This document shows, one piece after another, positions 46,038 to 64,000 of a stretch of 64,000 bases of DNA. The stretch spans positions 1,406 through 65,405 of the forward strand of contig JANQGU010000036.1 in the NCBI GenBank assembly GCA_028282935.1. Reading direction: 5' to 3'. The notes below the pieces were generated by a model that was not told the origin of the DNA, did not search any database, and saw only the letters and a list, made by a program, of their open reading frames with translations. The stretch is from Kiloniellales bacterium. Lineage in GTDB: Bacteria; Pseudomonadota; Alphaproteobacteria; Kiloniellales; JAKSBE01. How positions within the stretch are numbered: the first letter of the stretch is position 1; each line of letters starts with the position of its first letter. A program made the position numbers and the translations under genes.

Positions 46038-46068
46038 ATCGCCCCGATTGAGCGGAGCTTGATCTAGG
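46034..46068. repeat. Palindromic repeat element, copy B (shortened)
   Basis: CTAGATCgccccgattgagcggagcttGATCTAGg; matches copy A arm ccgattgagcggRgYttgatctagg; its two arms supply the TAG stops of the convergent PhyH and ScfR-like genes. Confidence 0.65.
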
Positions 46069-47629
46069 CAGACGCGGCGGGCGCCACGAGAGACGGCATG
46101 GCCCGCTGCCGGCAGTCGCTGCGCTCGCAGAGCCGGCAGTTGATCCCGACCGGGACCGCCGTCTCCGGCGCCTCCCATTTCAGGCCATCGCTGTAGACCA
46201 GCTCCTCCGCATAGGAGAGGTCGCAGCCGATGCCGATGACGTAGCGGGTCTCGGGCTCGCGATAGCCGCCGCCGGGCTTGGTTATGCTGCGCGCCAGGCA
46301 GAAGAAGCGGCTGCCGCCGGGCATCTCGGCGACCTGGACCAGGATCTGGCCGGGCGAGGCGCCGGCCGCGTGCAGGTTCCAGCGCGGGCAGACGCCGCCG
46401 TAGCGGGCGATCCGCAGGCCGGATCCGCCGAAGCGCTTCGAGACGTTGCCCGCCGGATCGATGCGCACGAAGTGGAAGGGCACGCCGCGCTGGCCCGGCC
46501 GCTGCAGGGTCGTCAGCCGGTGGCAGACCTGCTCGAAGCTGGCGCCGAAGCGCTGCTGCAGGCGCTCGATGTCGTAGCGCAGCTCTCGGGCCGCGGCGAC
46601 GAAGGGCTCGTAGGGCAGGATCACCGCCCCCGCGAAGTAGGACGCCAGCGCCTCCCGCAGCTTCGAGGCCGAGTCCTCCGCCGAGAGCGTCAGGCCCTCG
46701 ATCAGGGGATCGAAGCTCTGCTGGCATCGCAAGGCGCCGATGCAGCGTGCCATGTGGAAGGCCCGGCTGCTGGCCGGCAGGGCCTCGGAGAGCGCGAGGG
46801 TGCCGTCGCTCCGGTCGAAATCGGCCGGGACATCGGAGGGCGCGATCCGCAGCCTGACGCCGCAGGCCTTCTCGAGGTAGGCGGCAAGGCCGGATTCGAG
46901 CGACCGCTCGCTCAGCTCCGCCCGCGCCCAGAGCGCCTCGGCGGCCGCCTCCAGCTCCGGGAAGTGGTTGTTGTGGTTCTGGATGAAGTCCATCACGTCG
47001 TCGACCGCCGAGGCCAGGCCGCCCAGGGCGGCCAGGTCCTCGCCCTTGGCGAAGTCGACCATGCGGTCGGCGGCCTGGTCCAGGCGGCCGGTCTCCTTGA
47101 CCAGGATCTCGAGGAACCTCTGCCGCTGCTCCGCGTCCAGGTCGTCATAGTCGCGCAGGATCTCCGAAAAGGAGCGAATCGAGGTCAGCACGGTCCTCAG
47201 CTCATGGGTCGAGGCGGAGATCAGGGCATCGTCGCTGAGCCGCTCGCTGACGGCGTCGAGGTCGGCACGCAGGTTCCGGTAGCCCTGATAGAGCGCGATC
47301 ATGGCCTGCCCCAGGGCCGGCGCCGCGCCGACCGAGTCGCTCAGGTCCTTGGCGCCGAGGTCGAAGGACGCGAAGAGCGGATCGCGGAGGATCTCGACCA
47401 GGTCGGTGACGATGCGGGCGTCCTCGTCCTCGGCGAAGACCTGCAGGTCGACGTCGTAGCCCTCGGCCAGCTTCATCTGCAGCGATCGGGTCAAGGGCCT
47501 TTGGTTGTGCTCGATCAGGTTGAGGTAGCTGGGCGAGATGCCCAGCCGCTTGGCCATGTCGACCTGGGTCACGCCCTGCGCACGGCGCAGCCGTCTGACC
47601 TTGCTCCCAAGATGTGTGCGATCGCTCAT
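46064..47629 (-). CDS. Short-chain fatty acyl-CoA regulator-type XRE HTH / ImmA-IrrE peptidase-like / DUF2083 transcriptional regulator
   Basis: 521 aa; N-terminal XRE HTH (VTQVDMAKRLGISPSYLNLIEHNQRP); C-terminal Cys motif CRLCERSDCRQR. Confidence 0.8.
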   Translation of the reverse strand: MSDRTHLGSKVRRLRRAQGVTQVDMAKRLGISPSYLNLIEHNQRPLTRSLQMKLAEGYDVDLQVFAEDEDARIVTDLVEILRDPLFASFDLGAKDLSDSVGAAPALGQAMIALYQGYRNLRADLDAVSERLSDDALISASTHELRTVLTSIRSFSEILRDYDDLDAEQRQRFLEILVKETGRLDQAADRMVDFAKGEDLAALGGLASAVDDVMDFIQNHNNHFPELEAAAEALWARAELSERSLESGLAAYLEKACGVRLRIAPSDVPADFDRSDGTLALSEALPASSRAFHMARCIGALRCQQSFDPLIEGLTLSAEDSASKLREALASYFAGAVILPYEPFVAAARELRYDIERLQQRFGASFEQVCHRLTTLQRPGQRGVPFHFVRIDPAGNVSKRFGGSGLRIARYGGVCPRWNLHAAGASPGQILVQVAEMPGGSRFFCLARSITKPGGGYREPETRYVIGIGCDLSYAEELVYSDGLKWEAPETAVPVGINCRLCERSDCRQRAMPSLVAPAASA

Positions 47630-48081: not shown

Positions 48082-50082
48082 ATGGAAGCAAAAGTCATTT
48101 GGTTGTTTGCCTTCGTCGGCATGTACTGGGCGTACTGTATCTTCTGGGGCGTCAAGGGCGCCCTCCAGTCCAAGACGGCGAGCGACTACTTCATCGCGGG
48201 GCGCCGCATGTCGATGTGGGTCTTCGTCCTCGCGGCGACGGCGACGTCGTTCTCGGGATGGACCTTCATGGGCCATCCAGGGCTCGTCTATCGTGACGGG
48301 TTCCAGTACGCCTATGCGTCCTTCTACACCATCACGATCCCCTTCACGGGGGTCATGTTCCTGAAGCGGCAGTGGATCATCGGCAAGCGCTTCGGCTACG
48401 TCACGCCGGGCGAGATGCTGTCCGACTACTTCCGCGGCGACGCGATCCGGATCCTGACCGTGATCGTGGCCCTGCTGTTCTCGATCCCCTACCTGGGCGT
48501 GCAGCTCGGCGCGTCTGGCTTCCTGTTCAACGTGCTGACCACCACGGACGCCTATCCCACGGGCCTCGTCAACGCCGATCTGGGCATGTGGATCCTCTCG
48601 GCCGTCGTGCTCATCTACGTCGCCTCCGGCGGCCTCAGGGCGGTGGCCTACGTCGACACCCTGCAGTGCATCCTGCTGGCGCTCGGCATCGTGGTCACCG
48701 GCATCATCGCCCTCAACCTGATCGGCGGTTGGGGCGCCATCAACGATGGCTTCGCCACACTGGCGGCCAGCGAGGTCGGCAAGTGGGGCGTCACCGAGGA
48801 CGGGCACAATGCCTACTTCGCGATCCCGGGCGTGATCCAGTTCACCGCGGGCCTGGGCAAGGAGACCCCTGTGGGCGGCCTCTGGACCGGCATCATGGTG
48901 CTGACCTACATGTTCGCCCTCATGGGCATCCAGTCGGCGCCGGCCTTCTCGATGTGGTCCTTCTCCAACACCGACCCGCGGCCCTTCGCGCCGCAGCAGG
49001 TCTGGGCCTCGTCCTTCGCGATCGGCTTCATCCTGTTCTTCTTCACCGCCTTCCAGGGCATGGGCGCGCACCTTCTGGGCGCCAACCCGGCGGTGAACGA
49101 GGCCGGTCTGGCGATCTCGCAGATCCTCGACGGCGAAGCGATCGCGGCGAAACCGGACTCGCTGGTGCCCTACTACTTCAACCAGATCGCCGACGCGGCG
49201 CCCTGGTTGGTGGGCCTGCTGGCGGTCTGCGCCCTGGCCGCGATGCAGTCCACGGGTGCCGCCTACATGTCGACGGCGGGCGCGATGCTCACCCGCGACC
49301 TCTACAAGCGCTACCTGAACCCCGGCGCCTCGCACGCGACCCAGAAGCTCTTCGGCCGTCTGGGCGTGGCCTTCATCGTCCTCTCGGCGCTGCTGGTCGC
49401 AACCTTCTCGCAGGACGCTCTGGTTCTCCTGGGTGGTCTGGCGGTGGCCTTCGGCTTCCAGATGTGGCCCTCGCTCGCGGCCGTCTGCTGGTTCCCCTGG
49501 ATCACCCGCCAGGGTGCCACCTGGGGCTTGGCGGTGGGCCTGATCGCGGTGATCTTCACCGAGACCTTCGGTCAGACGATCGCCGGCGCCTTCGGCATTG
49601 AGCTGCCTTGGGGCCGCTGGCCCTGGACGATCCACTCGGCCGGTTGGGGGATCATCTTCAACTTGGCCGTCTGCATCGGCGTTTCCGCGATGACCCAGAA
49701 CACGGGCGATCGCGAGCATCGCATGAAGTTCCACAACTTCCTGCGCGAGCACGCGAGCCTTCCGGCCTCCAAGAAGGGTCTGGTCCCGGTGGCCTGGATC
49801 ATCACCTTGGCGTGGCTGTTCTTCGGCATCGGCCCGGGCGCGGTGATCGGCAACACGCTCTTCGGCGTCCCGGGCGACTCCACGACCTGGACCTTCGGCA
49901 TGCCGTCGATCTGGGTCTGGCAGATCCTGTTCTGGCTGCTCGGCGTCTTCATGATGTGGTTCCTTGCCTACAAGATGGAGATGTCGACGGTGCCGGAGCG
50001 TGAGATCGAGGCCTTGGCCGAGGATATCGGTGACGTCCATGCACCGGCCGAGCAAGCCGGTGCCGGAGGCGCCGCCGACTGA
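48082..50082 (+). CDS. Sodium:solute symporter (SSS) family permease
   Basis: 666 aa; ~13-15 TM; GGAGGGGAGA SD before ATG 48082. Confidence 0.9.
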   Translation: MEAKVIWLFAFVGMYWAYCIFWGVKGALQSKTASDYFIAGRRMSMWVFVLAATATSFSGWTFMGHPGLVYRDGFQYAYASFYTITIPFTGVMFLKRQWIIGKRFGYVTPGEMLSDYFRGDAIRILTVIVALLFSIPYLGVQLGASGFLFNVLTTTDAYPTGLVNADLGMWILSAVVLIYVASGGLRAVAYVDTLQCILLALGIVVTGIIALNLIGGWGAINDGFATLAASEVGKWGVTEDGHNAYFAIPGVIQFTAGLGKETPVGGLWTGIMVLTYMFALMGIQSAPAFSMWSFSNTDPRPFAPQQVWASSFAIGFILFFFTAFQGMGAHLLGANPAVNEAGLAISQILDGEAIAAKPDSLVPYYFNQIADAAPWLVGLLAVCALAAMQSTGAAYMSTAGAMLTRDLYKRYLNPGASHATQKLFGRLGVAFIVLSALLVATFSQDALVLLGGLAVAFGFQMWPSLAAVCWFPWITRQGATWGLAVGLIAVIFTETFGQTIAGAFGIELPWGRWPWTIHSAGWGIIFNLAVCIGVSAMTQNTGDREHRMKFHNFLREHASLPASKKGLVPVAWIITLAWLFFGIGPGAVIGNTLFGVPGDSTTWTFGMPSIWVWQILFWLLGVFMMWFLAYKMEMSTVPEREIEALAEDIGDVHAPAEQAGAGGAAD

Positions 50083-52009: not shown

Positions 52010-52228
52010 GTCCTCTCCGCTTCGTCGTACCGGCCGCGCTTCCTCCATGGGGCCCCGATCTGGCTCGCAGACCCAGCCCATGGTTTTATCTGAATAACCC
52101 TTACATTTAGTATAGTGAGCGGCGCGCCGAATCCCAGTGGCCTTGGGATCGGACTCTTTCAACGGTTCGGGCCCCGCCGCCGCCGCGGCGGGTCTCCAGG
52201 GTCACGACCAGGGGTGGGATAAGCCGGC

Positions 52229-53689
52229 ATGCAGTCGCAGACCAAGATCTTCTCTCAGCTCGTCCGCGACTACATGCGCAAGGCGAGCCTGGTTCTCTCC
52301 GCCGAGACCACGGTGGCCGAGCTGATCGCCGAGATGGTCCGCCGCAAGCGCACCAGCGCCCTGATGACCGACGCCGAGGGCCGGCTGGCCGGGATCGTCA
52401 CCGAGCAGGACATCACCCGCCGGATCGCCCTGCGCTGCAGCGGCGAGGAGCCGGCGACCGCGGTCATGACGGCGCCGGTCGAGAGCGTCGGCGGCGACGA
52501 CTATCTCTACGTCGCGATCGCCCGGATGCGGCGCTTCGGCTGGCGGCACATGCCGGTCACCGACCCCGAGGGCCGCCCGGTCGGGATCATCGACCTCAAC
52601 GCCGCCCTGGCGGTGGCCGCGGAGCAGATCCTCAAGCAGATCGACCGGATCTTTCACGAGGACAGCCTGGACGGCCTGCGCGAGGTCAAGGCGGCGCAGG
52701 TCGAGGTCGCCGACGACCTCTTCCGCGACCGGGTCCCGGCGCCGGAGATCCAGGCGGTGCTCAGCGACATCAACCGCGGCATCCACCGCCGGGTGATCCG
52801 GCGCAGCCTGGCGGCGATGCGCGAGGCCGGCCGGGGCGAGCCGCCGGTGCCCTTCGCCCTGCTGATCATGGGCTCGGGCGGGCGCGGCGAGAGCTTCCTC
52901 TACCCGGACCAGGACAACGGCTTCATCCTGGACGACTATCCCGATTCCGAGCACGACCGGATCGACGGCTTCTTCATCGAGCTGGCCGAGCGCATGACCG
53001 CCGAGCTCGACCAGATCGGCTTCCCCTACTGCAACGGCTACGTCATGGCGACCAACCCGCTGTGGCGCAAGACCCGCAGCCAGTGGGCGGCGCAGCTCCG
53101 CTACTGGGGCCGCAAGCGCAGCGAGATCGCGGTCCAGCTCTCGGACATCTTCTTCGACTTCTCCTGCGGCTACGGCGAGGCGCAGATGGTCCGGGAGCTG
53201 CGGACCCGGGTCACCGAGATGCTGCGCGCCAGCCCCGGATTCCTGCAGGAGATGCAGGCCGAGGTCCGCAACCAGGGGGTCGCCCTGGGCTGGTTCGGAC
53301 GCCTGCAGACCGAGACCGAGAAGAAGGAGTTCAAGGGCAAGATCAACCTCAAGCACCGCGGGACCCTGCCGCTGGTGTCCTGCGTCCGGCTGCTGGCGCT
53401 GCGCGAGGGCGTCGAGGCGACCTCGACCCTGGGGCGGATCGGCGCCCTGCACGCCAAGGGTGTCCTCGACCGCGACACCCAGGACTATCTCAAGGGCGCC
53501 TTCCGCCACATCACCGGCCTGCTGCTGCGCCAGCAGATCGCCGACTTCAAGGCCGGGAAGAGCGTCAGCAACTACGCCCATCCCGACGACCTCTCGGAAC
53601 GCGAGAAGGACATCCTGATCGACTCCTTCCGGGCGATCGAGAGCCTGCGCGACCGGGTCTACGCCGAGTTCACCGGCGACGTCTTCTGA
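52229..53689 (+). CDS. CBS-pair / DUF294-type putative nucleotidyltransferase with substrate-binding C-domain
   Basis: 486 aa; tandem CBS region (res ~14-130); NTase signature GSGGRGESFLYPDQDNG (52871-52921); DUF294_C-like helical C-terminus. Confidence 0.82.
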   Translation: MQSQTKIFSQLVRDYMRKASLVLSAETTVAELIAEMVRRKRTSALMTDAEGRLAGIVTEQDITRRIALRCSGEEPATAVMTAPVESVGGDDYLYVAIARMRRFGWRHMPVTDPEGRPVGIIDLNAALAVAAEQILKQIDRIFHEDSLDGLREVKAAQVEVADDLFRDRVPAPEIQAVLSDINRGIHRRVIRRSLAAMREAGRGEPPVPFALLIMGSGGRGESFLYPDQDNGFILDDYPDSEHDRIDGFFIELAERMTAELDQIGFPYCNGYVMATNPLWRKTRSQWAAQLRYWGRKRSEIAVQLSDIFFDFSCGYGEAQMVRELRTRVTEMLRASPGFLQEMQAEVRNQGVALGWFGRLQTETEKKEFKGKINLKHRGTLPLVSCVRLLALREGVEATSTLGRIGALHAKGVLDRDTQDYLKGAFRHITGLLLRQQIADFKAGKSVSNYAHPDDLSEREKDILIDSFRAIESLRDRVYAEFTGDVF

Positions 53690-53707
53690 GCCCACCGCTC
53701 CTTGGTG

Positions 53708-54499
53708 CTAGCGGCCCGTGAAGGCGGGCGGGCGGTGCGCCGTCCAGGCCTCCAGCCCCTCGCCGAGGTCGCGGCTGCCCGCGATCCGGGCGAACTGCTC
53801 GGCCTCCACCTGCAGGCCTTCGCCGATGGTCGCGTTGAGTCCGCGGGTCGCCGCCCTCAGGATCGCGGCCACCGCCAGGGGCGAATGGCGCAAGATGCGC
53901 CCCGCCAGCGCGCGGGCGGCGGGCAGCAGCTCGGCCGGCGGCACCACCGCGTTCACCAGGCCGATCTCCAGCGCCCTGGAGGCCGGGAAGCCGTCGCCGG
54001 TCAGCAGCAGCTCAAGCGCCCGCTTGCGGCCCGACAGGCGCGGCAGGCGCTGGGTGCCGCCGAAGGTCGGCGGCATCCCCAGGCGGATTTCCGGCTTGGC
54101 GAAGACCGCGGCGTCGCTGGCGATGGCCAGGGGCACGGCCTCGGTGATCTCGCAGCCGCCGCCGAAGGCCAAGCCGTTGACCGCGGCGATGATCGGCTTC
54201 TCGTAGGCCTCCAGCCGCGCGGTCATGGCCTGGCCGCGGCGGACGAAGTCCCGCAGCGCCGCCTCCGCGCCCCGGCGGACGCTTTCGGAGAATTCGTGGA
54301 TGTCGGCACCGGCCGAGAAGGCCTTCTCGCCCGCGCCGGTCAGGATGACGGCCCGCACCTCCGGGTCGGCCTCCAGATCGTCCAGCCGCGCCATCAGGGC
54401 GTCGGCCAGGGCGTAGCTGATGGCGTTCAGCTTCTCCGGCCGGTTGAGGGTCAGCGTGGCGATGCCTTCGGCAACTTCGCAAAGGACTGGGCTCGGCAT
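53708..54499 (-). CDS. Enoyl-CoA hydratase/isomerase (crotonase) family protein
   Basis: 263 aa; oxyanion-hole contexts FSAGADI and AAVNGLAFGGGCE. Confidence 0.88.
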   Translation of the reverse strand: MPSPVLCEVAEGIATLTLNRPEKLNAISYALADALMARLDDLEADPEVRAVILTGAGEKAFSAGADIHEFSESVRRGAEAALRDFVRRGQAMTARLEAYEKPIIAAVNGLAFGGGCEITEAVPLAIASDAAVFAKPEIRLGMPPTFGGTQRLPRLSGRKRALELLLTGDGFPASRALEIGLVNAVVPPAELLPAARALAGRILRHSPLAVAAILRAATRGLNATIGEGLQVEAEQFARIAGSRDLGEGLEAWTAHRPPAFTGR

Positions 54500-54619
54500 G
54501 GCGGGGCGCTCCTTCGATCTCGGAAGGCGCCACTGTCGCGTCGGCGCTGGGGCCGGGCAAACGAGTTGTCTGCAGGCGGACCTGAAGCTTTTTCAGCCGG
54601 GCGGCATGGCTTGGCGGCG

Positions 54620-57379
54620 CTACTTGGCGGCGGTGCCCAGCGCGGCCCGGGCGGCTTCCGGGTAGGGCAGGGTGAAGGCGAAGCGGGCGCCCTGGCCGGG
54701 CTTGCTCTCGACCCAGATCCGGCCGCCGAAGTGCTCGACGATCTGCCGGCAGATCGGCAGGCCCAGACCGGTGCCTTGCAGGTTGTGGGCCAGGTCCTCG
54801 CGCAGGGCCTGGAACTTCTCGAAGGCGCGGCGCTGCTCCTCGCGGGACAGGCCGACCCCGTTGTCGCCGACCACGATCAGCAGGTCCGCGGCCTGCGGCC
54901 GGGTCTCGACCGTAACCCGGCCGTCTTCCGGATCGCAGAACTTCACCGCGTTGGACAGGAGGTTCACGAGGACCTGAACCAGGCGGTCCTGGTCGGCGTG
55001 GACCGCCGGCAAGCGGGCCGGCAGGTCGACCTCCAGCGCGACCCCGCGCTCCCGGAACAGGCCATGGGTCGCGGCCAAGGCCTCCTCGATCGCCGGTCCC
55101 GGGTCGAGGTCGGCCATCTTCCACTCCATGCGGCCGGCTTCCATCTTCGCCAGGTCGAGGATCTGGTTGATCAGCCGGGTCAGGCGCTCGCTTTCCTTGA
55201 TGATGACGTTGAGGAACGCGCCGCGCTGAGCGAGGTCGAGCGAGGGGTTGTCGAAGAGGATCTCGCTGAAGGAGCGGATCGAGGTCAGCGGCGTGCGCAG
55301 CTCGTGGCTGACCGTCGAGATGAAGTCGTCCTTCAGCCGGTCCAGCTCGGTCAGGCGCTGGTTGGCGGCGCGCAGGTCGGAATAGGCGTGCTCCAGCTCG
55401 CTCGACTTCTGCTCCAGGCGGTGGCTGTACTCGATCACCTGGGAGGTCTCGTCCAGGATCTTCATGACCTCGTCGATCCGGATCATCTCGCCCTTGACCA
55501 CCGAGGCGAGCATGACCCGCGCCGAGGCCGCGCCGATGGCGCCGGCCAGCAGGCGCTCGGTGAAGTGCAGCAGGCGGGAATCCGCCTCCTCCAGCCGGTC
55601 CAGGTTGAGGTTGCGCTCGGCGGCGTAGCGGGCGAAGGCCCGGTCGGCGGGCTGCTTGCCCAGGAAGCGCACGACCACGTCGTAGACGTCGGCGAAGGTC
55701 GCGGTGCCGCGCCAGAGGCCCGAGCCGCGCTGGCTCTCGCTGTGGCGGAAGACGTCGACGAAGATCGCCGCCTGGATTCGCTCCAGCGCGCTCTCCTGGC
55801 TGAAGAGGGAGCCGATGATGTAGCCGCCGATGTTGCCGAACAGGCTCCAGAACAGGGCGTGGGTGACCTGGTCCAGGCCCTCCAGGCCGAAGAGCCGGTA
55901 GGGATGCAGAAGCTCGATCCCGAAGGGCCCCTGCTCGACGAAGGCGAGGCTGAGCCAGCCGGAACGGGCCATCGACGGCAGGAACAGGGTGTAGGCCCAG
56001 AGCGCGAAGCCGAGGCTGAGGCCGATCAGGGCGCCGGTCCGCGTGCCGCCCTTCCAGAAGATGCCGCCGATGATGGCCGGGGCGAACTGCGCCGCGGCGG
56101 CGAAGGAGACCAGGCCGATGGTGACCAGGGCGTAGGATTCGCCGATGTAGCGGTAGTAGATGTAGCTCATCGCCAGGATCAGGATGATGCTGCCGCGCCG
56201 GATCGCCAGCAGCAGGCCGGTCAGGTCGCGCTCCTCCGACAGGCGCAGCCCGGGCAGGCGCAGCAGGGTCGGCATCACCAGGTCGTTGCAGACCATGGTG
56301 CTGAGCGCGATGGTCGCGACGATCACCATGCCGGTCGCCGCCGACAGCCCGCCGATGAAGACGAAGAGCGCCAGGCCGTCCTGCTCGGCGGCAAGCGGCA
56401 GGGTGAGCACGAAGGTGTCGGCGTCGACGCTGCCGCCCGGGAACTGCATCAGCCCGGCCAGAGCGATCGGCAGCACGAAGATGTTGATCGCCAGCAGGTA
56501 CAGCGGGAACAGCCAGACCGCCTTGTGCAGGTGGGTCTCGTCGACGTTCTCGACCACCGTCACCTGGAACTGCCGCGGCAGGCAGATGATCGCGGCCATG
56601 GACAGCAGGGTCAGGGTCACCCATTGGCTGTAGCCGCCGTCCTGGATCGAGAAGAGGCGGGCGATCTCGGGCCGGGCGCCGGCCACGGCGAAGAGGTCGG
56701 CGAAGCCGCCATAGAGCCCGAAGGTGACGAAGAGCCCGACCGCCAGGAAGGCGACCAGCTTGACGATCGACTCGAAGGCGATCGCGGCGACCATGCCCTC
56801 GTGGTGCTCCGCCGCGTCGATCTGCCGGGTGCCGAAGAGGATCGTGAAGATCGCCAGGGCGGTGGTGACCAGGAAGGCGGTGTCGGCGGGGAAGGGGACC
56901 TCGAAGATCCGCGGCGAGGCCTCGAGGTTGGGGTAGTGGAGCAGCAGGTTGAAGCTGGTCGAGACGGCTTTCAGCTGCAGCGAGATGTAGGGCATGATCC
57001 CGACCACCGCGATCACCGTCACCAGGCCCGAGATCATCGTGCTCTTGCCATAGCGCGAGGAGATGAAGTCGGCGATCGAGGTGATCCGGTTGACCTTGCT
57101 GATCCGGATGATCTTCGCCAGTACGAACCACCAGAGCACGAAGGTCAGGGTCGGCCCGAGGTAGATCGGCAGGAAGGCGACCCCCGCCTGCGCCGCCCGG
57201 CCGACGCTGCCGTAGAAGGTCCAGGAGGTGCAGTAGACCGCGATCGACAGGGTGTAGATGTAGGGATTGGCGATCAGGCTGCGGCCTTCCTCGGCGCGCT
57301 TGTCGCCATAGTAGGCGATCGCGAAGAGCAGGCAGAGATAGGCGCAGGCGACGGGCAGGACGACCCAGCCGGACAGCAT
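54620..57379 (-). CDS. SSS-domain sensor histidine kinase (CbrA/CrbS-like)
   Basis: 919 aa; N-terminal ~500 aa sodium:solute-symporter-like 13-TM domain; H-box VSHELRTPLT; G1 DNGVG; G2 GTGLGLPICR; no receiver domain. Confidence 0.88.
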   Translation of the reverse strand: MLSGWVVLPVACAYLCLLFAIAYYGDKRAEEGRSLIANPYIYTLSIAVYCTSWTFYGSVGRAAQAGVAFLPIYLGPTLTFVLWWFVLAKIIRISKVNRITSIADFISSRYGKSTMISGLVTVIAVVGIMPYISLQLKAVSTSFNLLLHYPNLEASPRIFEVPFPADTAFLVTTALAIFTILFGTRQIDAAEHHEGMVAAIAFESIVKLVAFLAVGLFVTFGLYGGFADLFAVAGARPEIARLFSIQDGGYSQWVTLTLLSMAAIICLPRQFQVTVVENVDETHLHKAVWLFPLYLLAINIFVLPIALAGLMQFPGGSVDADTFVLTLPLAAEQDGLALFVFIGGLSAATGMVIVATIALSTMVCNDLVMPTLLRLPGLRLSEERDLTGLLLAIRRGSIILILAMSYIYYRYIGESYALVTIGLVSFAAAAQFAPAIIGGIFWKGGTRTGALIGLSLGFALWAYTLFLPSMARSGWLSLAFVEQGPFGIELLHPYRLFGLEGLDQVTHALFWSLFGNIGGYIIGSLFSQESALERIQAAIFVDVFRHSESQRGSGLWRGTATFADVYDVVVRFLGKQPADRAFARYAAERNLNLDRLEEADSRLLHFTERLLAGAIGAASARVMLASVVKGEMIRIDEVMKILDETSQVIEYSHRLEQKSSELEHAYSDLRAANQRLTELDRLKDDFISTVSHELRTPLTSIRSFSEILFDNPSLDLAQRGAFLNVIIKESERLTRLINQILDLAKMEAGRMEWKMADLDPGPAIEEALAATHGLFRERGVALEVDLPARLPAVHADQDRLVQVLVNLLSNAVKFCDPEDGRVTVETRPQAADLLIVVGDNGVGLSREEQRRAFEKFQALREDLAHNLQGTGLGLPICRQIVEHFGGRIWVESKPGQGARFAFTLPYPEAARAALGTAAK

Positions 57380-57382
57380 GGC

Positions 57383-57673
57383 TCAGTCCCCTTCCTGCCC
57401 GAAGCGGTCCTGCCCAAGGTTGTCCCGGGTGAGGGGGTCCTGCTTGCGGCCGGCCTGCGGGCGGTGTCCGGAAAACCGCCGCCAGCGCTCGGCGGCCAGG
57501 GCGGTCAGGCAGATCAGCGCGCCCCAGGCGGCGAAGAGGTAGATGTAGAGCAGCGGGATGCCGAACAGCCAGCCGGGCCCGTCGAAGATCGACAGCAGGG
57601 GCGGGCTCAGCAGGACCAGGCCCAGAAGGAAAAGGGCCAGATGGCGTTCACCGCTGGTTCCGCGCCTCGGCAT
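57383..57673 (-). CDS. Small 2-TM membrane protein (DUF3311-like) preceding the SSS-kinase
   Basis: 96 aa; stop 3 nt before the kinase ATG; helices LALFLLGLVLLSPPLL and LLYIYLFAAWGALICLTALA. Confidence 0.55.
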   Translation of the reverse strand: MPRRGTSGERHLALFLLGLVLLSPPLLSIFDGPGWLFGIPLLYIYLFAAWGALICLTALAAERWRRFSGHRPQAGRKQDPLTRDNLGQDRFGQEGD

Positions 57674-57770
57674 GCCTGGTCTCTCCGGCGATCCGCCCGG
57701 GGTGGGTCTCGACGATCAAGTCTACACCCGGCGGCCGGGCTTGGCACCGGCAAGGAAGCCTTTGGAAAAG

Positions 57771-59882
57771 CTAAAACTCCTCTTGAAGGCGCCGGACCTC
57801 GACCATCTCCTCCGAGGCCTTGAAAGCGGCGCTCAAGGTGGCGATGCCGCGCGCCTCGAGCAGCTTGAGCATGGCCAGGAAGACCTCGGCCGTGACCATG
57901 GTGTCTCCCATGGCGGTGTGCCGGCCCCAGATCTCGATGCCCAGCCGCTCGGCGATGGCGTCCAGGCTGTGGTTCTGCTCCTCCGGGTGCAGCCAGACCG
58001 ACAGCAGCAGGGTGTCCAGCACCGGGTTGTCGAAGACGACGCCGCAGGTGGCCTCCTTGAGCCGGAGGAACTTCATGTCGAAGGCGGCGTTGTGGGCGAT
58101 CAGCACGGCGTCCGCGGCGAAACGGTGGAACTGCGGCAGGATCTCCCGCGCCGCGGGACCGTCCCGGACCATGTCGTCGGTGATCCCGTGGAAGCGGATC
58201 GAGGCCCTCGGGATCGGCTTGCCGGGATTGACCAGGCGTTCGAAGGTCTCGCCCGTCAGTATGCGGCCGTTGACCACCCGGACCCCGGCGATCTGGATGA
58301 TCTCGTCGCCGCCCGAGGGGTTGAGGCCGGTGGTCTCGGTATCGAAGACGACGTAGGACAGCTCGGAGAGCCTGCGGTCGCCGACCGCCTCCGGGGGCGC
58401 CTGGCCGTGGAACAGGTCGAAGTCGTAGAACTCCGGCCGGGGTGGCAGCGCGCCGGGCATCTCGGGGCCGCTCGGTGGCTTGCCCGCCGGCAGGGCGAGG
58501 CGAAGCCCGGGCGCTTCCGGCCGATCGCCGAGGCTCCAGACCTCGGCGCCGTGCTGTTCGAGGATCTCCTGGAGCGAGCCCGCGGTCGCCCCGTCGTCGA
58601 GGCGCTCCTGCAGCCAGAGATCGAGGTCGCGCTGCGGCAGCGCCTCGCTCGGCCAATGCAGGTCGAGCGCGCTGCGGCCGTCCTGCCGGATCGCCGCCAG
58701 GGTGAAGCTCTCGGCCTTCCGGGTATCCGCCAGCTTGCGGATCAGGCGGGTCAGGACCCACTGCAGGGCCAGGCTGTCGCCGCGCAGCCAGATCTCGCCG
58801 CCCTCGACCTGCAGGCGCGGACCGGCCTCGGCTTCCAGTTCCTCGATCAGGGACTCGAAAAGGTCGCGCGCCAGGACGTTGCCCAGCAGCAGGGCCTCGG
58901 ACTTGAGCGCCTCGTGGGAGGCCGTCAGCGTCTCGAGCTGATCGCAGAGCCGCTGGCTCTCCTCGGCGACGACCCGGTCGAAGCCCTGCCGGCGGGCGGC
59001 GTCCAGCTCGGGGTGCTCGATCATCGTCTCGACCGCCGCCCGCAGGTTGGCGAGCGGGCCCCGGAAGCCCTCGGTGGCCCGGCGCAGCAGAAGGTCGCGC
59101 TCGGCGAAGCGGGCGCGCTCCCGGCCGGCCTCGGAGAAGACCACAACGTAGCCGCGGGCGTTGCCCTCGGGATCGAAGATCAGGGTCATCCGGCCGTGCA
59201 GAAGGCTGCCGCTCGCCTTGCCCAGGCACAGCAGGTCGGCGGTCTCGGAGTGGCTTGCCGCTTCCCTGGTCTTGGCCCGCCGGCGCAGGCGGCTGAGGGC
59301 GTGGCAGACCGCTTCCTCCCCGACCAGATCGAGGATCGGCCGGCCGAGGCCGGTGTTCTCCGGCGCCCCCAGGGCGAGCTGGGCCGCCTTGTTGTAGAGC
59401 AGGATCTTGTGCTCCAGGTTGCAGACCACGACCGCCTCGCTGAGGTCGCGCAGGATCGCCTCCAGCCAGCCGCGCTGCTCTTCGCTGCGCGCGCTCGCGA
59501 TGGCCATGGCCTTGACCACCTCGCTGCGCGCCGTCCGCAGCTCGCGGCTGGCCTCCTTGATGGCCTCGTGCAGCGGCCCCAGGGTATGGGCGCCGGCGAT
59601 CTCCACGCCCGCCTCGGCGCCGGCGCGGCTGATCGTGTGAAGCCGGCTGGTCAGGCGCGACAGGGGCCGGACCAGACGCTGCTCGACGATCACCCAGGCG
59701 AAGAGCGCCGAGGCGACGAAGCCGAGGGCCAGGACGGCGCCGAACAGCAGGATCTTGCCGAGCGCCTCGGACTCGCTGCCGCTCAGGGAGACGAAGGCGA
59801 AGCTGGCGAGACCCAGGACCGCGCTCAGACCCAGGATGCCGAGGGCGAGGAAGATCAGGACGAAGAAGCGGCGTGTCGTCAT
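57771..59882 (-). CDS. Membrane HAMP-PAS sensor with degenerate histidine-kinase core fused to DEDDh (DnaQ-like) 3'-5' exonuclease
   Basis: 703 aa; 2 TM (res ~5-66), HAMP, PAS (~135-250), H-box-like [19 protein letters not shown] without His (59052-59075), CA-like region lacking N/G1/G2 boxes, exonuclease motifs FDTETTG, HNAAFD, HTAMGD (57843-58361). Confidence 0.85.
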
Positions 59883-59910
59883 TCCCGGGTGAGCTCCTGA
59901 GCCTTCGTCC

Positions 59911-60288
59911 TCAGCTCTCCCGGTCCTCCAGGAAGGTCTTGACGCGCTCGACCAGCTCGCGGGTCGAGAAGGGTTTGGTCACGTAGTCGTCGGCGCCCAG
60001 CGCCATGCCCTTTTCGCGCTCCACCTCGCGGCCCTTGGCGGTCAGCATGATAATCCGGACCTTCTTCCATTCCGGCTTGGCGCGGATCATCTGGCAGAGG
60101 TCGTAGCCGTCGCGTTTCGGCATCATGACGTCGAGCAGCACAAGGTCGGGGAGCTTGTCCTCCATGGCCTTGAGCGCGGCCTCGCCGTCGGCCGCAACGC
60201 GAACCTCGAACCCCGCCTGTTCCATCAGGAACTCCAGGGACATCACGATGTTGGGTTCGTCGTCCACGACCAGGACGGAATGCGACAT
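59911..60288 (-). CDS. Stand-alone receiver (CheY-like) response regulator
   Basis: 125 aa from ATG 60288 (GGGAGG SD); [24 protein letters not shown]; no output domain. Confidence 0.9.
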
Positions 60289-60434
60289 CCGGCCAGCCTC
60301 CCTAAGCCCCGGCACCCCTCTTATCCAAAGCTTGGGGGCGTCCTTCTCGGCCAGACTCCAGACTAGCCTCCCCTGGCGGGCATTGCCAGCGCCTGAGCGC
60401 TGGGATAGAACCCCGGCCGGTTCCCAGATCACGC

Positions 60435-60528
60435 CGCGCTCGATTGGAACCGATTGGGCGCAGGTAACTCGATCTGTTTCACATAGATAGAGCAGCCTGT
60501 CCGCGTTCGAGCGAACACAGGCTGCTCT
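60435..60528. repeat. Palindromic repeat element, copy C (inverted relative to A) with an added 12-bp-stem hairpin
   Basis: gatctgtttcacatagatagagcagc is the reverse complement of copy A gctgctctatctatatgaaatagatc with 2 differences; hairpin AGAGCAGCCTGT (60489-60500) / ACAGGCTGCTCT (60517-60528). Confidence 0.65.
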
Positions 60529-60549
60529 GGCCTCATTCCGGAGACGAGC

Positions 60550-62229
<1,680 letters not shown>

Positions 62230-62275
62230 GCCCCTAATCCGTTGGGCCCTGACCTGCTGGGCCCTGGCGCGGGGC

Positions 62276-62917
62276 TCAGTCCCGCTCGGGCGTGAAGCCA
62301 CCGCTGGCGAGCTTCGCGCGCAGCTCGGCGGTCAGGCCGGGCAGGTCGCCGTTGGAGCGCTTGAGCACCGATGTGTATTCGGAGCGGAAGGTGATCGCCA
62401 GGCTCACCCCTTCCGCGACCACGTCGATGATCTTGAAGCTGCCGTTCGCCCGGCGGATCCGCCAGCCCACCGGCAGCTTGTTGCCGTTTTCCAGGGTGAT
62501 GCTGGAAACCACCAGGCTGAGCTTGGGGTTGGTCGGATCGGGCTTGATCTCGTCGATGGCGAAGGCCTCGCCGCGGTAGTCCCTGAAGTAGGGCAGGAAG
62601 CGCTGGGCGAGGACTTCCTTGAAGGTGGTGAGGAAAGCCGCCTGCTCCGAGGGATCGGCGCCGCGCGCATAGACGCCCAGCACGAAGCGGCCGATCGCCC
62701 TCATGTCGAAGTTGGTCTCCAGAAGATCGCGGAAGCGCTGCTGCCGTTCGGCGTCGCCGATCGACTGGTCGCTCAGCTCCGCGATCGCCCGCTGACTCAG
62801 CGAGACCAGAAAGCTCCCGGCGTCCTTGTCTTCCGCCGCCGCCGATCCGGCCGCCGCCAGATAGAAACACATCGTCATGACGACCGTCGCGAACGGCCGC
62901 CGTCCCCCCCTGACCAT
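62276..62917 (-). CDS. mlaC: MlaC/Ttg2D family phospholipid-binding periplasmic protein
   Basis: 213 aa; signal peptide; WRIRRANGSFKIIDVVAEGVSLAITFRSEY typical of Ttg2D/MlaC. Confidence 0.82.
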   Translation of the reverse strand: MVRGGRRPFATVVMTMCFYLAAAGSAAAEDKDAGSFLVSLSQRAIAELSDQSIGDAERQQRFRDLLETNFDMRAIGRFVLGVYARGADPSEQAAFLTTFKEVLAQRFLPYFRDYRGEAFAIDEIKPDPTNPKLSLVVSSITLENGNKLPVGWRIRRANGSFKIIDVVAEGVSLAITFRSEYTSVLKRSNGDLPGLTAELRAKLASGGFTPERD

Positions 62918-62933
62918 CGGTACTTGGCTCCCT

Positions 62934-62978
62934 GCCTAGTGGTTGTGGGCCTAGTGGTTATGGGCCTAGTGCTTGTGG
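62934..62978. repeat. 15-bp tandem repeat x3 (gcctagtgSttRtgg) in the mlaA-mlaC spacer
   Basis: gcctagtggttgtgg / gcctagtggttatgg / gcctagtgcttgtgg read directly; each unit contains CTAG. Confidence 0.9.
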
Positions 62979-63010
62979 ATTCCTGCCGCCCCCGCGCGAA
63001 AAGGCAAAGG

Positions 63011-63868
63011 CTAAGGCGCCGGCGCGTCTCCCTCCGCGGGTGCGTCCTCCGAGGCCTCTTCCTCGTCCTCCAGATCGTCCAGGAAGTCGTCGGGAAAATC
63101 AGGAAGCGGGGCGTCCCCAGGTTCGCCGTTGCGGATCTCGGCCTGCCGGTTCTGGTGCCAGAGGCTGCGCACCCGGGCGTAGAAGTCGACGGAATCCCGG
63201 CGCAGGTCGTCCAGGGAATCGATGTTGCGGGCCCGCAGATCGAGGCCGCCGGCCAGGGTCTTGGCGGTGCTCGCGGTTCGGGCCTCGTCGTAGCGGCCGT
63301 CGATGCCGGCGAGCTCGAAGCCGCCGAGATAGGTGAGGGGGTCGAAGAATATGTCGACCACCTTGCCGCCGGCGTCGCGGGCGCTGCTCGGGCCGAAGAT
63401 CGGCAGCACCAGGTAGAAGCCGGGGTCGACGCCCCAGACCCCGAGGGTCTGGCCGAAGTCCTCGCTGCGGTAGGGATAGCCGCTGTCGGCCGCGACGTCG
63501 AAGAGCCCGCCGACGCCGATGGTCAGGTTGATCAGCAGGCGCGCCGTGATGTTCTCCATCGCGTCCAGGTCGCCCTGCAGGATCGCGTTCGCCATGCTGA
63601 CCGGCGTGTCGGCCAGGCGCACCAGGTTGCGGATGATGTCCTGCACGAAGATGGGAACCAGCTCGCTGTAAGGCTCGGCGATGGGCCTGATGAGCAGGTC
63701 GTCGACCAGCAGATTGAGGTCGAAGACCGTCCGGTTCAAGGGCTCCAGCGGGTCCGGAATCTCCTGGAACCCGAGAGCGGTTTCGTCTTGTTCTTGGGGC
63801 TGGGACGCGCAGGCACTCAAAGAGACCGCTAGGATCGCCGCGACCAGCCAGGTTCGAATGAAGCGCAT
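63011..63868 (-). CDS. mlaA: MlaA/VacJ family outer-membrane lipoprotein
   Basis: 285 aa from ATG 63868 (GAGGAGG SD); lipobox LSLSA|C; DPLEPLNRTVFDLN VacJ signature. Confidence 0.88.
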   Translation of the reverse strand: MRFIRTWLVAAILAVSLSACASQPQEQDETALGFQEIPDPLEPLNRTVFDLNLLVDDLLIRPIAEPYSELVPIFVQDIIRNLVRLADTPVSMANAILQGDLDAMENITARLLINLTIGVGGLFDVAADSGYPYRSEDFGQTLGVWGVDPGFYLVLPIFGPSSARDAGGKVVDIFFDPLTYLGGFELAGIDGRYDEARTASTAKTLAGGLDLRARNIDSLDDLRRDSVDFYARVRSLWHQNRQAEIRNGEPGDAPLPDFPDDFLDDLEDEEEASEDAPAEGDAPAP

Positions 63869-64000
63869 GGGCCTCCTCTCGTCCTGATCATCTTTCTTTG
63901 CCCGCCCCCAAGGCTCGAGCGGACACACTTCGCCCCCGGGTGTCCTAGCCATCCCTAGCCAGCCCGGGCTCCGCCGCTCTCCACTCCTTGCGGGCAGCCC

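What the first reader, a model, noticed from the sequence alone, without database searches (positions are those of the whole stretch)
57771..59882. Histidine-kinase-like sensor whose phospho-acceptor His is lost and whose output is a 3'-5' exonuclease
Seen: residues ~258-325 align with a DHp H-box ([21 protein letters not shown] versus VSHELRTPLTSIRSFSEIL of the neighbouring kinase). Glu replaces His, and the segment contains no His at all. The following CA-like region keeps the terminal [13 protein letters not shown]...GLRLALP shape but lacks the N, G1 and G2 boxes. The C-terminal 170 aa carry intact DEDDh motifs (FDTETTG, HNAAFD, HTAMGD). Inference: this is a pseudokinase scaffold. It possibly docks the adjacent lone receiver or heterodimerises with the SSS-kinase, converting a membrane/PAS signal into regulated nuclease activity. 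I do not recall this architecture being described.
Basis: partly seen in the sequence, partly recalled or inferred. Interest (0 to 1): 0.65.

Follow-up and report, generated by a model that had tools for sequence, protein, structure and literature searches.

The report
His-less kinase-like sensor fused to exonuclease
This gene encodes a membrane sensor built like a bacterial histidine kinase that has lost its phosphorylation site and ATP pocket and carries an intact 3'-5' exonuclease instead; it belongs to a widespread, unstudied family that always travels with a lone receiver protein and usually with a transporter-kinase, so it probably turns a nutrient signal into nuclease activity.

Summary
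ORF 57771..59882(-) encodes 703 aa: TM hairpin, HAMP-like helix, PAS, DHp, CA-like domain, invariant linker (RPEFYDFDL) and a DEDDh exonuclease. A family profile of the middle region hits only histidine kinases in the PDB over DHp+CA (E 8e-10). It matches the neighbouring kinase at 97.9% hhalign probability, and the AF2 model matches WalK/VicK. Glu271 lies on the phospho-acceptor His: His occurs in 0/96 homologues and 1/145 further cluster representatives. The N-box Asn is Arg/Lys, the G1 Asp is Trp in 96/96, and the phosphatase T/N is absent. The DEDDh residues are invariant. One detail is wrong: the segment has two His (H290, H323), neither conserved. The family occurs in at least 80 species-level genomes across several phyla. 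A single-domain receiver lies directly upstream in 71/83 loci, an SLC5-type kinase nearby in 60/83 and a CBS-DUF294 nucleotidyltransferase in 60/83. Exonuclease-less versions keep the receiver-pseudokinase-small TM-kinase order. Best reading, inferred rather than shown: a DivL-like pseudokinase reads the receiver's phosphorylation state and gates the nuclease. I found no paper on it. It is a new variant of a known kind.

The parts
57771..59882 (-). Whole gene: 703-aa TM-HAMP-like-PAS-DHp-CA-like-linker-DEDDh exonuclease protein
   Evidence: ORF list. Full-length homologues of about 700 aa. AF2 model, pLDDT 79.9.
59688..59876 (-). Two-helix transmembrane hairpin (res 3-65) with a periplasmic loop of about 10 residues, so there is no periplasmic sensor domain
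   Evidence: AF2 helices 3-32 and 37-87. Hydrophobic stretches read from the translation. Topology is inferred.
59478..59687 (-). HAMP-like / signalling-helix region (res 66-135)
   Evidence: AF2 helices up to residue 130. Pfam HAMP is detected in only 1/29 family members. Foldseek aligns 471 columns of the model with WalK. The assignment is tentative.
59115..59465 (-). Cytoplasmic PAS domain (res 140-256). L162, N164, G178, L179 and R181 are invariant.
   Evidence: Pfam PAS 1e-8 and PAS_4 4e-7. Invariant columns.
58896..59114 (-). DHp (HisKA-like) helical hairpin (res 257-329). H-box remnant [17 protein letters not shown], with R274 and E285 invariant.
   Evidence: PDB profile search. hhalign. 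HisKA is called in 13/22 isolated mid-regions. AF2 helices 254-289 and 295-329.
59070..59072 (-). Codon of Glu271, which occupies the phospho-acceptor His position
   Evidence: HMMER alignments to 9m08, WalK and VicK. Column counts E76 D7, His 0/96. E87, His 1/145 in further representatives. Coordinates checked.
58485..58883 (-). CA-like (HATPase_c fold) domain (res 334-466) with a degenerate ATP site: N-box Asn replaced by K383 (family R/K/H), G1 Asp replaced by W410 (invariant), G2 degenerate. The RHGxEvWS tail is retained.
58413..58445 (-). Invariant linker motif [11 protein letters not shown] (res 480-490) between the CA-like and exonuclease domains. Its function is unknown.
   Evidence: R482, D487 in 83/83, Y486 in 79/83, F488 in 82/83. 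Invariant columns. Low pLDDT. It lies outside the PolC/epsilon-homologous region. Coordinates checked.
57774..58358 (-). DEDDh 3'-5' exonuclease domain (res 509-703), PolC-exo-like, with ExoI D514/E516, ExoII D602 and ExoIII H655/D660
   Evidence: Pfam RNase_T 3.4e-41. PDB 2p1j 8.6e-33. Foldseek PolC 9qpc, 34% identity, rmsd 1.5. Catalytic residues invariant.
59911..60288 (-). Single-domain response regulator (125 aa from the ATG at 60288, GGGAGG 8 nt upstream), immediately upstream of the exonuclease gene; the likely partner
   Evidence: Pfam Response_reg 1.3e-32. Start and RBS. Directly upstream in 71/83 loci. DD, D53, T83 and K105 conserved.
57383..57673 (-). Small two-TM protein (about 83 aa in homologues; start uncertain) directly upstream of the transporter-kinase, in the position CbrX holds upstream of cbrA
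   Evidence: No Pfam hit. Homologues in 52/83 loci. Gene calls of 79-85 aa. CbrX described in PMC6591292.
54620..57379 (-). SLC5-type transporter fused to a canonical HisKA/HATPase_c kinase (919 aa); the likely kinase of the receiver
   Evidence: Pfam HisKA and HATPase_c. N-terminus matches PDB 10ed_A 'histidine kinase' at 1.2e-71. H-box HELRTPLTSIR in 60/60 orthologues. Within 6 kb in 60/83 loci.
52229..53689 (+). CBS-CBS-DUF294 nucleotidyltransferase (486 aa); a conserved neighbour and possible functional partner of the exonuclease
   Evidence: Pfam CBS, DUF294 and DUF294_C. Within 10 kb in 60/83 loci. The P. putida pair pp_0354/pp_0353 is described in PMC9927547.

Best explanation
The protein is a membrane-anchored, presumably dimeric pseudo-histidine kinase whose C-terminus carries a catalytically competent DEDDh 3'-5' exonuclease.

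Shown:
- It has the full architecture of a sensor kinase: TM hairpin, HAMP-like helix, PAS, DHp and CA.
- The acceptor His is Glu, the ATP-binding Asn and Asp are Lys/Arg and Trp, and the HisKA phosphatase residue is missing. It can therefore neither autophosphorylate nor act as a canonical phosphatase.
- The exonuclease active site is intact.
- The gene is nearly always preceded by a single-domain receiver, and usually accompanied by an SLC5-transporter histidine kinase with a perfect H-box and by a CBS-DUF294 nucleotidyltransferase.

Inferred:
- The transporter-kinase senses a transported solute, probably a short-chain carboxylate such as acetate, pyruvate or propionate, by analogy with CrbS/MxtR and RpuS. 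It then phosphorylates the lone receiver.
- The receiver has no output domain. It docks on the conserved DHp face of the pseudokinase (R274, A278, A282, A283, E285), as DivK~P docks on the His-less kinase DivL.
- Docking, together with PAS and membrane input, shifts the DHp/CA conformation and switches the tethered exonuclease on or off through the invariant RPEFYDFDL linker.
- The nuclease's substrate is unknown. The conserved DUF294 nucleotidyltransferase suggests a nucleotide-addition/removal pair.
For: Kinase-core homology:
- PDB profile hits are exclusively histidine kinases over DHp+CA.
- hhalign against the neighbouring kinase gives 97.9%.
- Foldseek gives WalK, VicK, YF1 and ThkA at 1e-19 to 1e-12.

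Loss of catalytic residues in 96 homologues and in 145 further 50%-identity representatives.

Intact DEDDh site and close similarity to the PolC exonuclease domain.

Synteny over 83 loci from Alpha-, Beta- and Gammaproteobacteria, Magnetococcales, Desulfobacterales, Chloroflexi and Nitrospirota:
- Receiver directly upstream in 71/83.
- SLC5-kinase nearby in 60/83.
- DUF294 nearby in 60/83.
- All three in 44/83.

Exonuclease-less, TM-less PAS-pseudokinase proteins keep the order receiver, pseudokinase, small TM protein, SLC5-kinase. This marks the receiver-pseudokinase pair as the core unit.

The partner kinase keeps HELRTPLTSIR in 60/60, and the receiver keeps its phospho-acceptor Asp, Thr and Lys. 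No DNA-binding regulator is in the cluster.

Precedent for reversed signalling through a His-less kinase: DivL (PMC4211667). Precedent linking SLC5-kinases to a DUF294/exonuclease pair: the pp_0354-pp_0353 operon is a direct MxtR/ErdR target (PMC9927547 and bioRxiv 10.64898/2026.09.07.749794).
Against: - No direct evidence of receiver binding. A mutual-information test between the receiver and the DHp gave no signal above a control domain.
- The specificity positions of the pseudokinase DHp (A, A, A at +7, +11, +12) differ from those of the partner kinase (T, A/S, F), so a shared receiver is not obvious.
- Glu at the acceptor position is only about 80-86% conserved, so it is not essential for whatever the module does.
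- A negative side chain facing the receiver's phospho-Asp could favour the unphosphorylated form instead.
- In 5/83 loci no partner was found within the flanks, and about a quarter lack the SLC5-kinase nearby; some of these contigs are truncated.
- The existence of exonuclease-less versions shows that the pseudokinase has a function that does not need the nuclease.
Confidence: 0.55

Rival explanations
1. The pseudokinase acts on the kinase, not on the receiver. It would form a DHp heterodimer or membrane complex with the SLC5-kinase, as RetS does with GacS, and modulate its autophosphorylation. The exonuclease would be controlled by, or merely tethered to, that complex.
For: Both are membrane proteins encoded side by side in 60/83 loci. 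The pseudokinase has a TM hairpin without a periplasmic domain, as in intramembrane-sensing kinases that rely on a transporter partner (own knowledge). The two DHp domains align without gaps.
Against: The receiver is a more constant neighbour than the kinase (71 versus 60 of 83). Several loci have receiver, exonuclease and DUF294 but no SLC5-kinase within 10 kb. The exonuclease-less relatives have lost the TM hairpin but keep the receiver upstream.
Confidence: 0.15
2. The pseudokinase is a dedicated phosphatase or phosphate sink for the receiver, acting as a feedback element of the two-component system. Glu/Asp271 would position the hydrolytic water, as acidic or amide residues do in CheX, CheZ and Spo0E. 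The exonuclease would be a separately acting passenger.
For: An acidic residue is present at the acceptor position in about 68-86% of members. Versions without the exonuclease exist in the same operon position, so the module has a nuclease-independent role.
Against: The canonical HisKA phosphatase residue (T/N at H+4) is absent, being A/G in 75%. The acceptor position is R, A, Q, T, V or K in a sizeable minority, which is unusual for a catalytic residue. This model also leaves the system without any output.
Confidence: 0.12
3. It is a PAS- and membrane-regulated exonuclease that works independently of the neighbouring two-component genes. The DHp would serve only as a dimerisation coiled coil, and the synteny would reflect co-expression in a shared (short-chain carboxylate) regulon.
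For: The PAS domain has invariant polar residues (N164, R181) that suggest a ligand. Stand-alone exonuclease/DUF294 pairs in Pseudomonas are controlled transcriptionally rather than by fusion.
Against: The CA-like domain and the outward DHp face are conserved far beyond what dimerisation needs (R274 and W410 invariant; A278, A282, A283 at 90% or more). The tight, same-strand receiver-then-pseudokinase order persists across phyla and in the exonuclease-less forms.
Confidence: 0.13
4. It is still an active kinase, or an ATP-dependent enzyme, that uses another acceptor residue.
For: The HATPase_c fold is retained. H290 and H323 exist in this sequence.
Against: The Mg-ATP Asn and the adenine-binding Asp are replaced family-wide, with Trp in 96/96. 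No DHp column has a conserved His. HATPase_c is not detected by Pfam in 0/29 members.
Confidence: 0.03

Closest known systems
DivL of Caulobacter crescentus (pseudo-histidine kinase that senses DivK~P)
   Same: It has a PAS plus DHp plus CA architecture with a non-His residue at the acceptor position. It works with a single-domain receiver that is phosphorylated by separate, genuine kinases. Information flows from the receiver into the kinase-like protein (PMC4211667). DivL's DHp-CA (4q20) is hit by the family profile at 1.7e-7.
   Different: DivL has Tyr rather than Glu at the acceptor position, has no fused enzyme, and signals through its PAS domains to CckA. It is not the closest sequence relative: WalK, VicK and 9m08 score better. 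Receiver binding is not demonstrated here.
P. putida PP_0353 / P. aeruginosa PA3232-type stand-alone RNase_T exonuclease, paired with CBS-DUF294 (PP_0354 / PA3233), in the CrbS/MxtR (SLC5-kinase) regulon
   Same: It shows the same three-way association of an SLC5-transporter kinase, a DUF294 nucleotidyltransferase and a DEDDh exonuclease, linked to acetate, pyruvate and propionate use (PMC9927547; bioRxiv 10.64898/2026.09.07.749794). In many beta-proteobacterial loci DUF294 directly follows the fusion gene.
   Different: There the exonuclease is a small soluble protein controlled transcriptionally through a DNA-binding regulator (ErdR/CrbR). Here it is fused to a sensor module and paired with an output-less receiver, which implies post-translational control. 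Orthology of the two exonuclease domains was not tested.
PolC-type / DnaQ (epsilon) proofreading exonuclease domains
   Same: It has the DEDDh fold and motifs. The T. maritima PolC exonuclease domain matches at 8.6e-33, and PolC 9qpc at 34% identity and rmsd 1.5 A.
   Different: There is no polymerase, no epsilon C-terminal tail, and scores fall far below the equivalog cut-offs (dnaQ_proteo 121.7 versus 222.7; PolC 158.8 versus 873). The database label 'DNA polymerase III subunit epsilon' is a misnomer.
WalK/VicK-type HisKA sensor kinases
   Same: These are the best structural and profile matches over TM-HAMP-PAS-DHp-CA.
   Different: Those are active kinases with His, N, G1 and G2 boxes and no nuclease.
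RetS and NifL (kinase-like proteins that act through protein-protein contacts)
   Same: They are histidine-kinase-like scaffolds repurposed for regulation without phosphotransfer. NifL appears among the fold hits (9qq6). The RetS comparison rests on my own knowledge.
   Different: They have different partners (GacS, NifA) and no fused catalytic output.

Membership tests
Functional HisKA-family histidine kinase | DHp domain homologous to HisKA | tested here: met
   The profile hits kinases only, E 8e-10. hhalign 97.9%. HisKA is called in 13/22 isolated mid-regions, although not in the window protein itself.
Functional HisKA-family histidine kinase | Phospho-acceptor His in the H-box | tested here: not met
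   Glu271 aligns on the His. His occurs in 0/96 and 1/145.
Functional HisKA-family histidine kinase | ATP-binding N-box Asn, G1 DxGxG and G2 in the CA domain | tested here: not met
   Asn is replaced by R49/H13/K10, the G1 Asp by Trp in 96/96, and G2 is degenerate. Pfam HATPase_c is found in 0/29 members. The fold itself is retained.
Functional HisKA-family histidine kinase | Phosphatase motif E/D-x-x-T/N after the His | tested here: not met
   H+1 is G in 70/96. H+4 is A58/G14, with no T or N among the listed residues.
DEDDh (DnaQ-like, Pfam RNase_T) exonucleases | Match to PF00929 above the gathering score | tested here: met
   141.9 bits against a cut-off of 24. 29/29 family members match.
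DEDDh (DnaQ-like, Pfam RNase_T) exonucleases | ExoI D-x-E, ExoII D and ExoIII H-x4-D catalytic residues | tested here: met
   D514, E516, D602, H655 and D660 are invariant in 96 sequences and in 82-83 of 83 locus sequences.
DEDDh (DnaQ-like, Pfam RNase_T) exonucleases | 3'-5' exonuclease activity and substrate | not testable with these tools
   Needs a biochemical assay.
DNA polymerase III epsilon subunit (the name used in several databases) | Score above the NCBIfam dnaQ equivalog cut-off | tested here: not met
   TIGR01406 121.7 versus 222.7; NF004316 123.9 versus 196. Only the subfamily-domain model TIGR00573 passes (107.5 versus 71.5).
DivL-type receiver-sensing pseudokinase | Kinase-like core with a non-His acceptor position | tested here: met
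   The residue is Glu rather than Tyr.
DivL-type receiver-sensing pseudokinase | Specific binding of a phosphorylated single-domain receiver | not testable with these tools
   The evidence is circumstantial only: a receiver lies directly upstream in 71/83 loci and in 4/4 exonuclease-less relatives. The covariation test was inconclusive.
DivL-type receiver-sensing pseudokinase | Sequence orthology with DivL | tested here: not met
   DivL (4q20) scores 1.7e-7, below 9m08, WalK, VicK and HK853. It works like DivL at most; it is not a DivL orthologue.
SLC5-kinase-linked DUF294/exonuclease module (CrbS/MxtR regulon type) | Exonuclease gene associated with a CBS-DUF294 gene and an SLC5-type kinase | tested here: met
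   DUF294 within 10 kb in 60/83 loci, SLC5-kinase within 6 kb in 60/83. All three are present in the window.
SLC5-kinase-linked DUF294/exonuclease module (CrbS/MxtR regulon type) | Control through a DNA-binding regulator (CrbR/ErdR) | tested here: not met
   The only regulator in the cluster is a 125-aa receiver without an output domain.
Anti-phage defence systems | Match to a system-specific PADLOC model | tested here: not met
   Only generic DEDDh domain models hit. DUF294 has no hit.

The most novel reading that the evidence does not exclude
The cluster is a two-component-gated write/erase system for nucleotidylation. The GlnD/GlnE-like CBS-DUF294 enzyme would add a nucleotide to a protein, or build a short oligonucleotide signal. 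The 'exonuclease' would be its eraser: releasing a 5'-NMP from a Tyr/Thr-O-NMP adduct is chemically the same step as releasing the 3'-terminal nucleotide. The His-less kinase module would read the phosphorylation state of a lone receiver charged by a carboxylate-transporting kinase. Short-chain fatty-acid availability would thereby set the nucleotidylation level of a metabolic target post-translationally.
Probability: 0.12. Interest if true: 0.85.

Novelty: new variant of a known kind. Interest (0 to 1): 0.6.

Why it matters
Bacterial pseudo-histidine kinases are known from a handful of cases such as DivL, and none has an enzyme fused to it. Here a whole, phylogenetically broad family couples such a module to a nuclease, which would be a new kind of output for two-component signalling.

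It also gives a handle on an open problem. The DUF294 nucleotidyltransferase/exonuclease pair is among the genes most strongly controlled by the acetate-sensing CrbS/MxtR system in Pseudomonas, yet its function is unknown. The fusion says that the exonuclease is a regulated end-point of an SLC5-kinase pathway. It also offers cultured carriers (Azonexus hydrophilus, Aquincola tertiaricarbonis, Tibeticola sediminis, Rhodovulum tesquicola) and a soluble fragment in which binding and activity can be tested.

On the practical side, standard annotation misses the kinase-like core (Pfam HATPase_c 0/29, HisKA 5/29) and mislabels members as DNA polymerase III epsilon.

Tried and rejected
1. Covariation (mutual information with APC) between the receiver and the pseudokinase DHp/CA, and between the receiver and the partner kinase, on 60-72 paired sequences. 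The top scores equalled those of a control (receiver versus exonuclease domain), so the test says nothing.
2. Scan of genome contigs with the mid-region alignment A2. I repeated it with the full-length alignment A3. The 561 'relatives' there may include other exonucleases, so I rely only on the 80 returned loci, which all cover the kinase-like part.
3. Defence-system reading. PADLOC gave only generic DEDDh hits, and the context is metabolic and signalling. Rejected.
4. Proofreading subunit reading (the database name). Scores are below the equivalog cut-offs and the architecture is incompatible. Rejected.
5. Promoter and terminator scan of 52000-60700. Nothing above shuffles.
6. Literature searches for DUF294+exonuclease, CrbS+exonuclease, pseudokinase+DivL+exonuclease and DEDDh+PAS+histidine kinase found no description of the fusion. 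The RpuS paper on SLC5/STAC kinases does not mention it.
7. The AFDB fold library was unavailable.
8. A complex prediction (pseudokinase plus receiver) could not be run with the single-chain tool.
Full report
**The gene and its domains.** The minus-strand ORF 57771..59882 encodes 703 aa. Pfam recognises only a PAS domain (140-256) and an RNase_T exonuclease domain (511-668, 3.4e-41). It does not call HisKA or HATPase_c, even at E 0.1. NCBIfam places the C-terminus nearest PolC, DinG and DnaQ-type exonucleases, but far below every equivalog cut-off.

**Is the middle a kinase core?** Yes.
- I collected homologues: 586 hits, the best 120 nearly all about 700 aa.
- I aligned them (A1 and A3) and cut out residues 252-478 (A2).
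- The A2 profile searched against all PDB sequences returns only histidine kinases at significant E-values. They align over both DHp and CA: 9m08 8.4e-10, WalK 5c93/4u7n, VicK 4i5s, HK853, and the pseudokinase DivL 4q20 at 1.7e-7.
- hhalign of A2 against the DHp-CA of the neighbouring kinase gives 97.9% probability, E 5e-13, over 210 columns.
- HisKA is called in 13 of 22 isolated mid-regions, and HATPase_c in 1.
- An AlphaFold2 model built on 96 sequences (pLDDT 79.9) shows a TM hairpin, a long HAMP-like helix, PAS, a two-helix DHp (254-289, 295-329), an alpha/beta CA-like domain (334-466), a poorly ordered linker and the exonuclease.
- Foldseek against the PDB matches the first ~470 residues to whole sensor kinases: WalK 1.4e-19, VicK, YF1, ThkA.
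- It matches the C-terminus to PolC (34% identity, rmsd 1.5 A), the T. maritima PolC exonuclease domain, DinG and epsilon (sequence-level confirmation).

**Is it catalytically dead as a kinase?** In the HMMER alignments Glu271 lies exactly on the phospho-acceptor His. Column counts in 96 homologues:

| Position | Residues found |
|---|---|
| Acceptor His | E76 D7 A3 Q2 T2, His 0 |
| H+1 | G70 |
| H+4 (the HisKA phosphatase T/N) | A58 G14 |
| N-box Asn | R49 H13 K10 (N in 6) |
| G1 Asp | Trp in 96/96 |
| G2 | degenerate |

R274 and E285 are invariant.

- In 145 additional 50%-identity cluster representatives the acceptor position is E87 R12 D11 A7 Q6 T5. His occurs once, and that one member still has Trp at G1 and no N-box.
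Neither is conserved.
- The exonuclease residues D514, E516, D602, H655 and D660 are invariant.

**Distribution.**
- A scan of one genome per GTDB species returned 80 loci that all cover the kinase-like part.
- They come from Alpha-, Beta- and Gammaproteobacteria, Magnetococcales, Desulfobacterales, Chloroflexi and Nitrospirota.
- Cultured strains among them include Tibeticola sediminis, Aquincola tertiaricarbonis, Azonexus hydrophilus, Rhodovulum tesquicola and a Pseudomonas sp..
- An exhaustive HMMER search with PAS plus pseudokinase found 98 clusters at E 1e-30 or better.
- 111 of 145 aligned representatives carry both pseudokinase and exonuclease; most of the rest are fragments.
- The nearest named relative of the window protein (84% identity) is from a Kiloniellales MAG.

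**Neighbourhood in the window.** On the minus strand the order is:
1. A receiver, 59911..60288 (125 aa, good RBS).
2. The fusion gene.
3. A small two-TM protein.
4. A 919-aa SLC5-type transporter-kinase.
5. A crotonase-like gene.

A CBS-DUF294 nucleotidyltransferase converges from the plus strand. The kinase's N-terminus matches a solved 'histidine kinase' transporter domain at 1.2e-71.

**Neighbourhood elsewhere.** Gene calls around three distant homologues show the same set. I ran my own phmmer survey of 83 loci:

| Neighbour | Loci |
|---|---|
| Single-domain receiver directly upstream, same strand | 71/83 |
| SLC5-kinase within 6 kb | 60/83 |
| DUF294 within 10 kb | 60/83 |
| All three | 44/83 |

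- Many contigs are truncated, so these are lower bounds.
- The partner kinase orthologues keep HELRTPLTSIR in 60/60.
- The receiver keeps its acidic pocket, D53, T83 and K105, and has a strongly conserved alpha1.

**Exonuclease-less relatives: the most informative extra finding.**
- The representative search uncovered soluble PAS-pseudokinase proteins of 346-367 aa. They have neither the TM hairpin nor the exonuclease, but they carry the same signature: Glu at the acceptor position and Trp at G1.
- All four whose contigs could be read have a receiver directly upstream.
- The two with enough downstream DNA continue with the small TM protein and an SLC5-kinase.
- The conserved unit is therefore receiver plus pseudokinase next to the transporter-kinase. 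The exonuclease is a frequently fused end-piece.
- One 1154-aa gene call fuses the protein to CBS-DUF294. It lacks ExoIII and may be an artefact.

**Mechanism.**
- Shown: the anatomy, the loss of kinase and canonical phosphatase residues, the intact nuclease site, and the synteny.
- Inferred: the transporter-kinase phosphorylates the output-less receiver. The receiver docks on the conserved DHp face of the pseudokinase, as DivK~P does on DivL (PMC4211667). This, together with PAS and membrane input, gates the tethered exonuclease through the invariant RPEFYDFDL linker.
- I put about 0.55 on this reading.
- Rivals are a RetS-like complex with the kinase, a dedicated receiver phosphatase or sink using Glu271, and a PAS-regulated nuclease independent of the two-component genes. 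A residual-kinase model is very unlikely.
- A covariation test could not discriminate between these.

**Link to known biology.**
- In P. putida the operon pp_0354 (cNMP-CBS-DUF294) and pp_0353 (stand-alone RNase_T exonuclease) is among the genes most strongly dependent on the SLC5-kinase system MxtR/ErdR (CrbS/CrbR).
- Mutants show mild growth defects: pp_0353 on pyruvate and propionate, pp_0354 on propionate. The function is unknown (PMC9927547; bioRxiv 10.64898/2026.09.07.749794; PMC5715377).
- DUF294 is a GlnD/GlnE-like nucleotidyltransferase (PMC3710099).
- The window also holds an SSF transporter (48082..50082) and a ScfR-type short-chain acyl-CoA regulator (46064..47629). Both fit a carboxylate theme.
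- The fusion family looks like a post-translationally wired version of the same kinase/nucleotidyltransferase/exonuclease association.

**Novelty.** No paper in the searchable library describes a kinase-like exonuclease fusion. Databases name members 'exonuclease domain-containing protein', 'PAS domain-containing protein' or 'DNA polymerase III subunit epsilon'. Pfam misses the kinase-like core in most members: HisKA 5/29, HATPase_c 0/29. I rate it a new variant of a known kind, namely a pseudo-histidine kinase with an unprecedented nuclease output, and set interest at 0.6.

Noticed in passing
L084-L087 (proteins P0158, P0209, P0240, P0187, P0151): These are soluble 346-367-aa PAS plus His-less kinase-like proteins, without the TM hairpin and without the exonuclease. 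They sit in the same gene order: receiver, pseudokinase, 79-81-aa TM protein, SLC5-kinase. The receiver-pseudokinase pair therefore exists independently of the nuclease.
   Followed up: yes
window 57383..57673 (-): A small two-TM ORF with no Pfam family lies directly upstream of the transporter-kinase. It is conserved in 52/83 loci (about 80-85 aa in gene calls). It resembles CbrX by position, the small membrane ORF translationally coupled to cbrA in P. putida (PMC6591292). The true start codon here is uncertain.
   Followed up: partly
window 58413..58445 (-), residues 480-490: The linker motif [11 protein letters not shown] is almost invariant across phyla (R482 and D487 in 83/83). It lies in a low-confidence part of the model and outside the PolC/epsilon-homologous domain. 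It could be a docking or autoinhibitory element. The exonuclease-less relatives end before it.
   Followed up: partly
protein P0135 (JGI 3300067032, 5-kb contig; no DNA held): This 1154-aa gene call fuses TM-PAS-pseudokinase-exonuclease (the ExoIII motif is missing) to CBS-CBS-DUF294-DUF294_C, and is preceded by a receiver. It is either a Rosetta-stone fusion linking exonuclease and nucleotidyltransferase, or a frameshift or assembly artefact.
   Followed up: partly
window 52229..53689 (+); loci L026-L028, L034, L041-L043, L046, L060, L062, L078: CBS-DUF294 nucleotidyltransferase is a conserved neighbour. Many beta-proteobacterial loci carry two tandem DUF294 genes right after the fusion gene, and Sulfurifustis (L001) has a second SLC5-kinase with a sigma-54 regulator and a cNMP-CBS-DUF294 gene nearby.
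   Followed up: partly
window 46064..47629 (-): A 521-aa regulator with HTH_3, Peptidase_M78 and the ScfRs (short-chain fatty acyl-CoA regulator) C-terminal domain also gives a HisKA hit (residues 136-197, 3.7e-10). That is an odd place for a DHp-like segment.
   Followed up: no
window 48082..50082 (+): A 666-aa sodium:solute symporter (SSF, 7.7e-30) lies 2 kb from the DUF294 gene. Related loci carry DUF4212+SSF transporter pairs at the same place (L002, L003). No DUF4212 ORF was found upstream here.
   Followed up: partly
window 54620..57379 (-), residues 9-472: The transporter part of the kinase is not called by Pfam SSF at E 0.1. It does match PDB entry 10ed_A ('histidine kinase', 606 aa) at 1.2e-71, presumably a recently solved SLC5-type transceptor.
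   Followed up: partly
protein P0206 (697 aa): This is the only family representative with His at the acceptor position (LTHDSRR). It still has Trp at the G1 Asp position and no N-box, so it is probably a sporadic reversion rather than an active kinase.
   Followed up: partly
window 53708..54499 (-) and 60550..63952: A crotonase/enoyl-CoA-hydratase-like gene (judged by eye from the translation, not profile-tested) ends the minus-strand cluster, but it is rarely conserved in other loci. Beyond the receiver lie an ABC-F (EttA-like) gene and MlaC/MlaA-like genes. The same ABC-F and MlaC neighbours flank the alphaproteobacterial homologue in L002.
   Followed up: no
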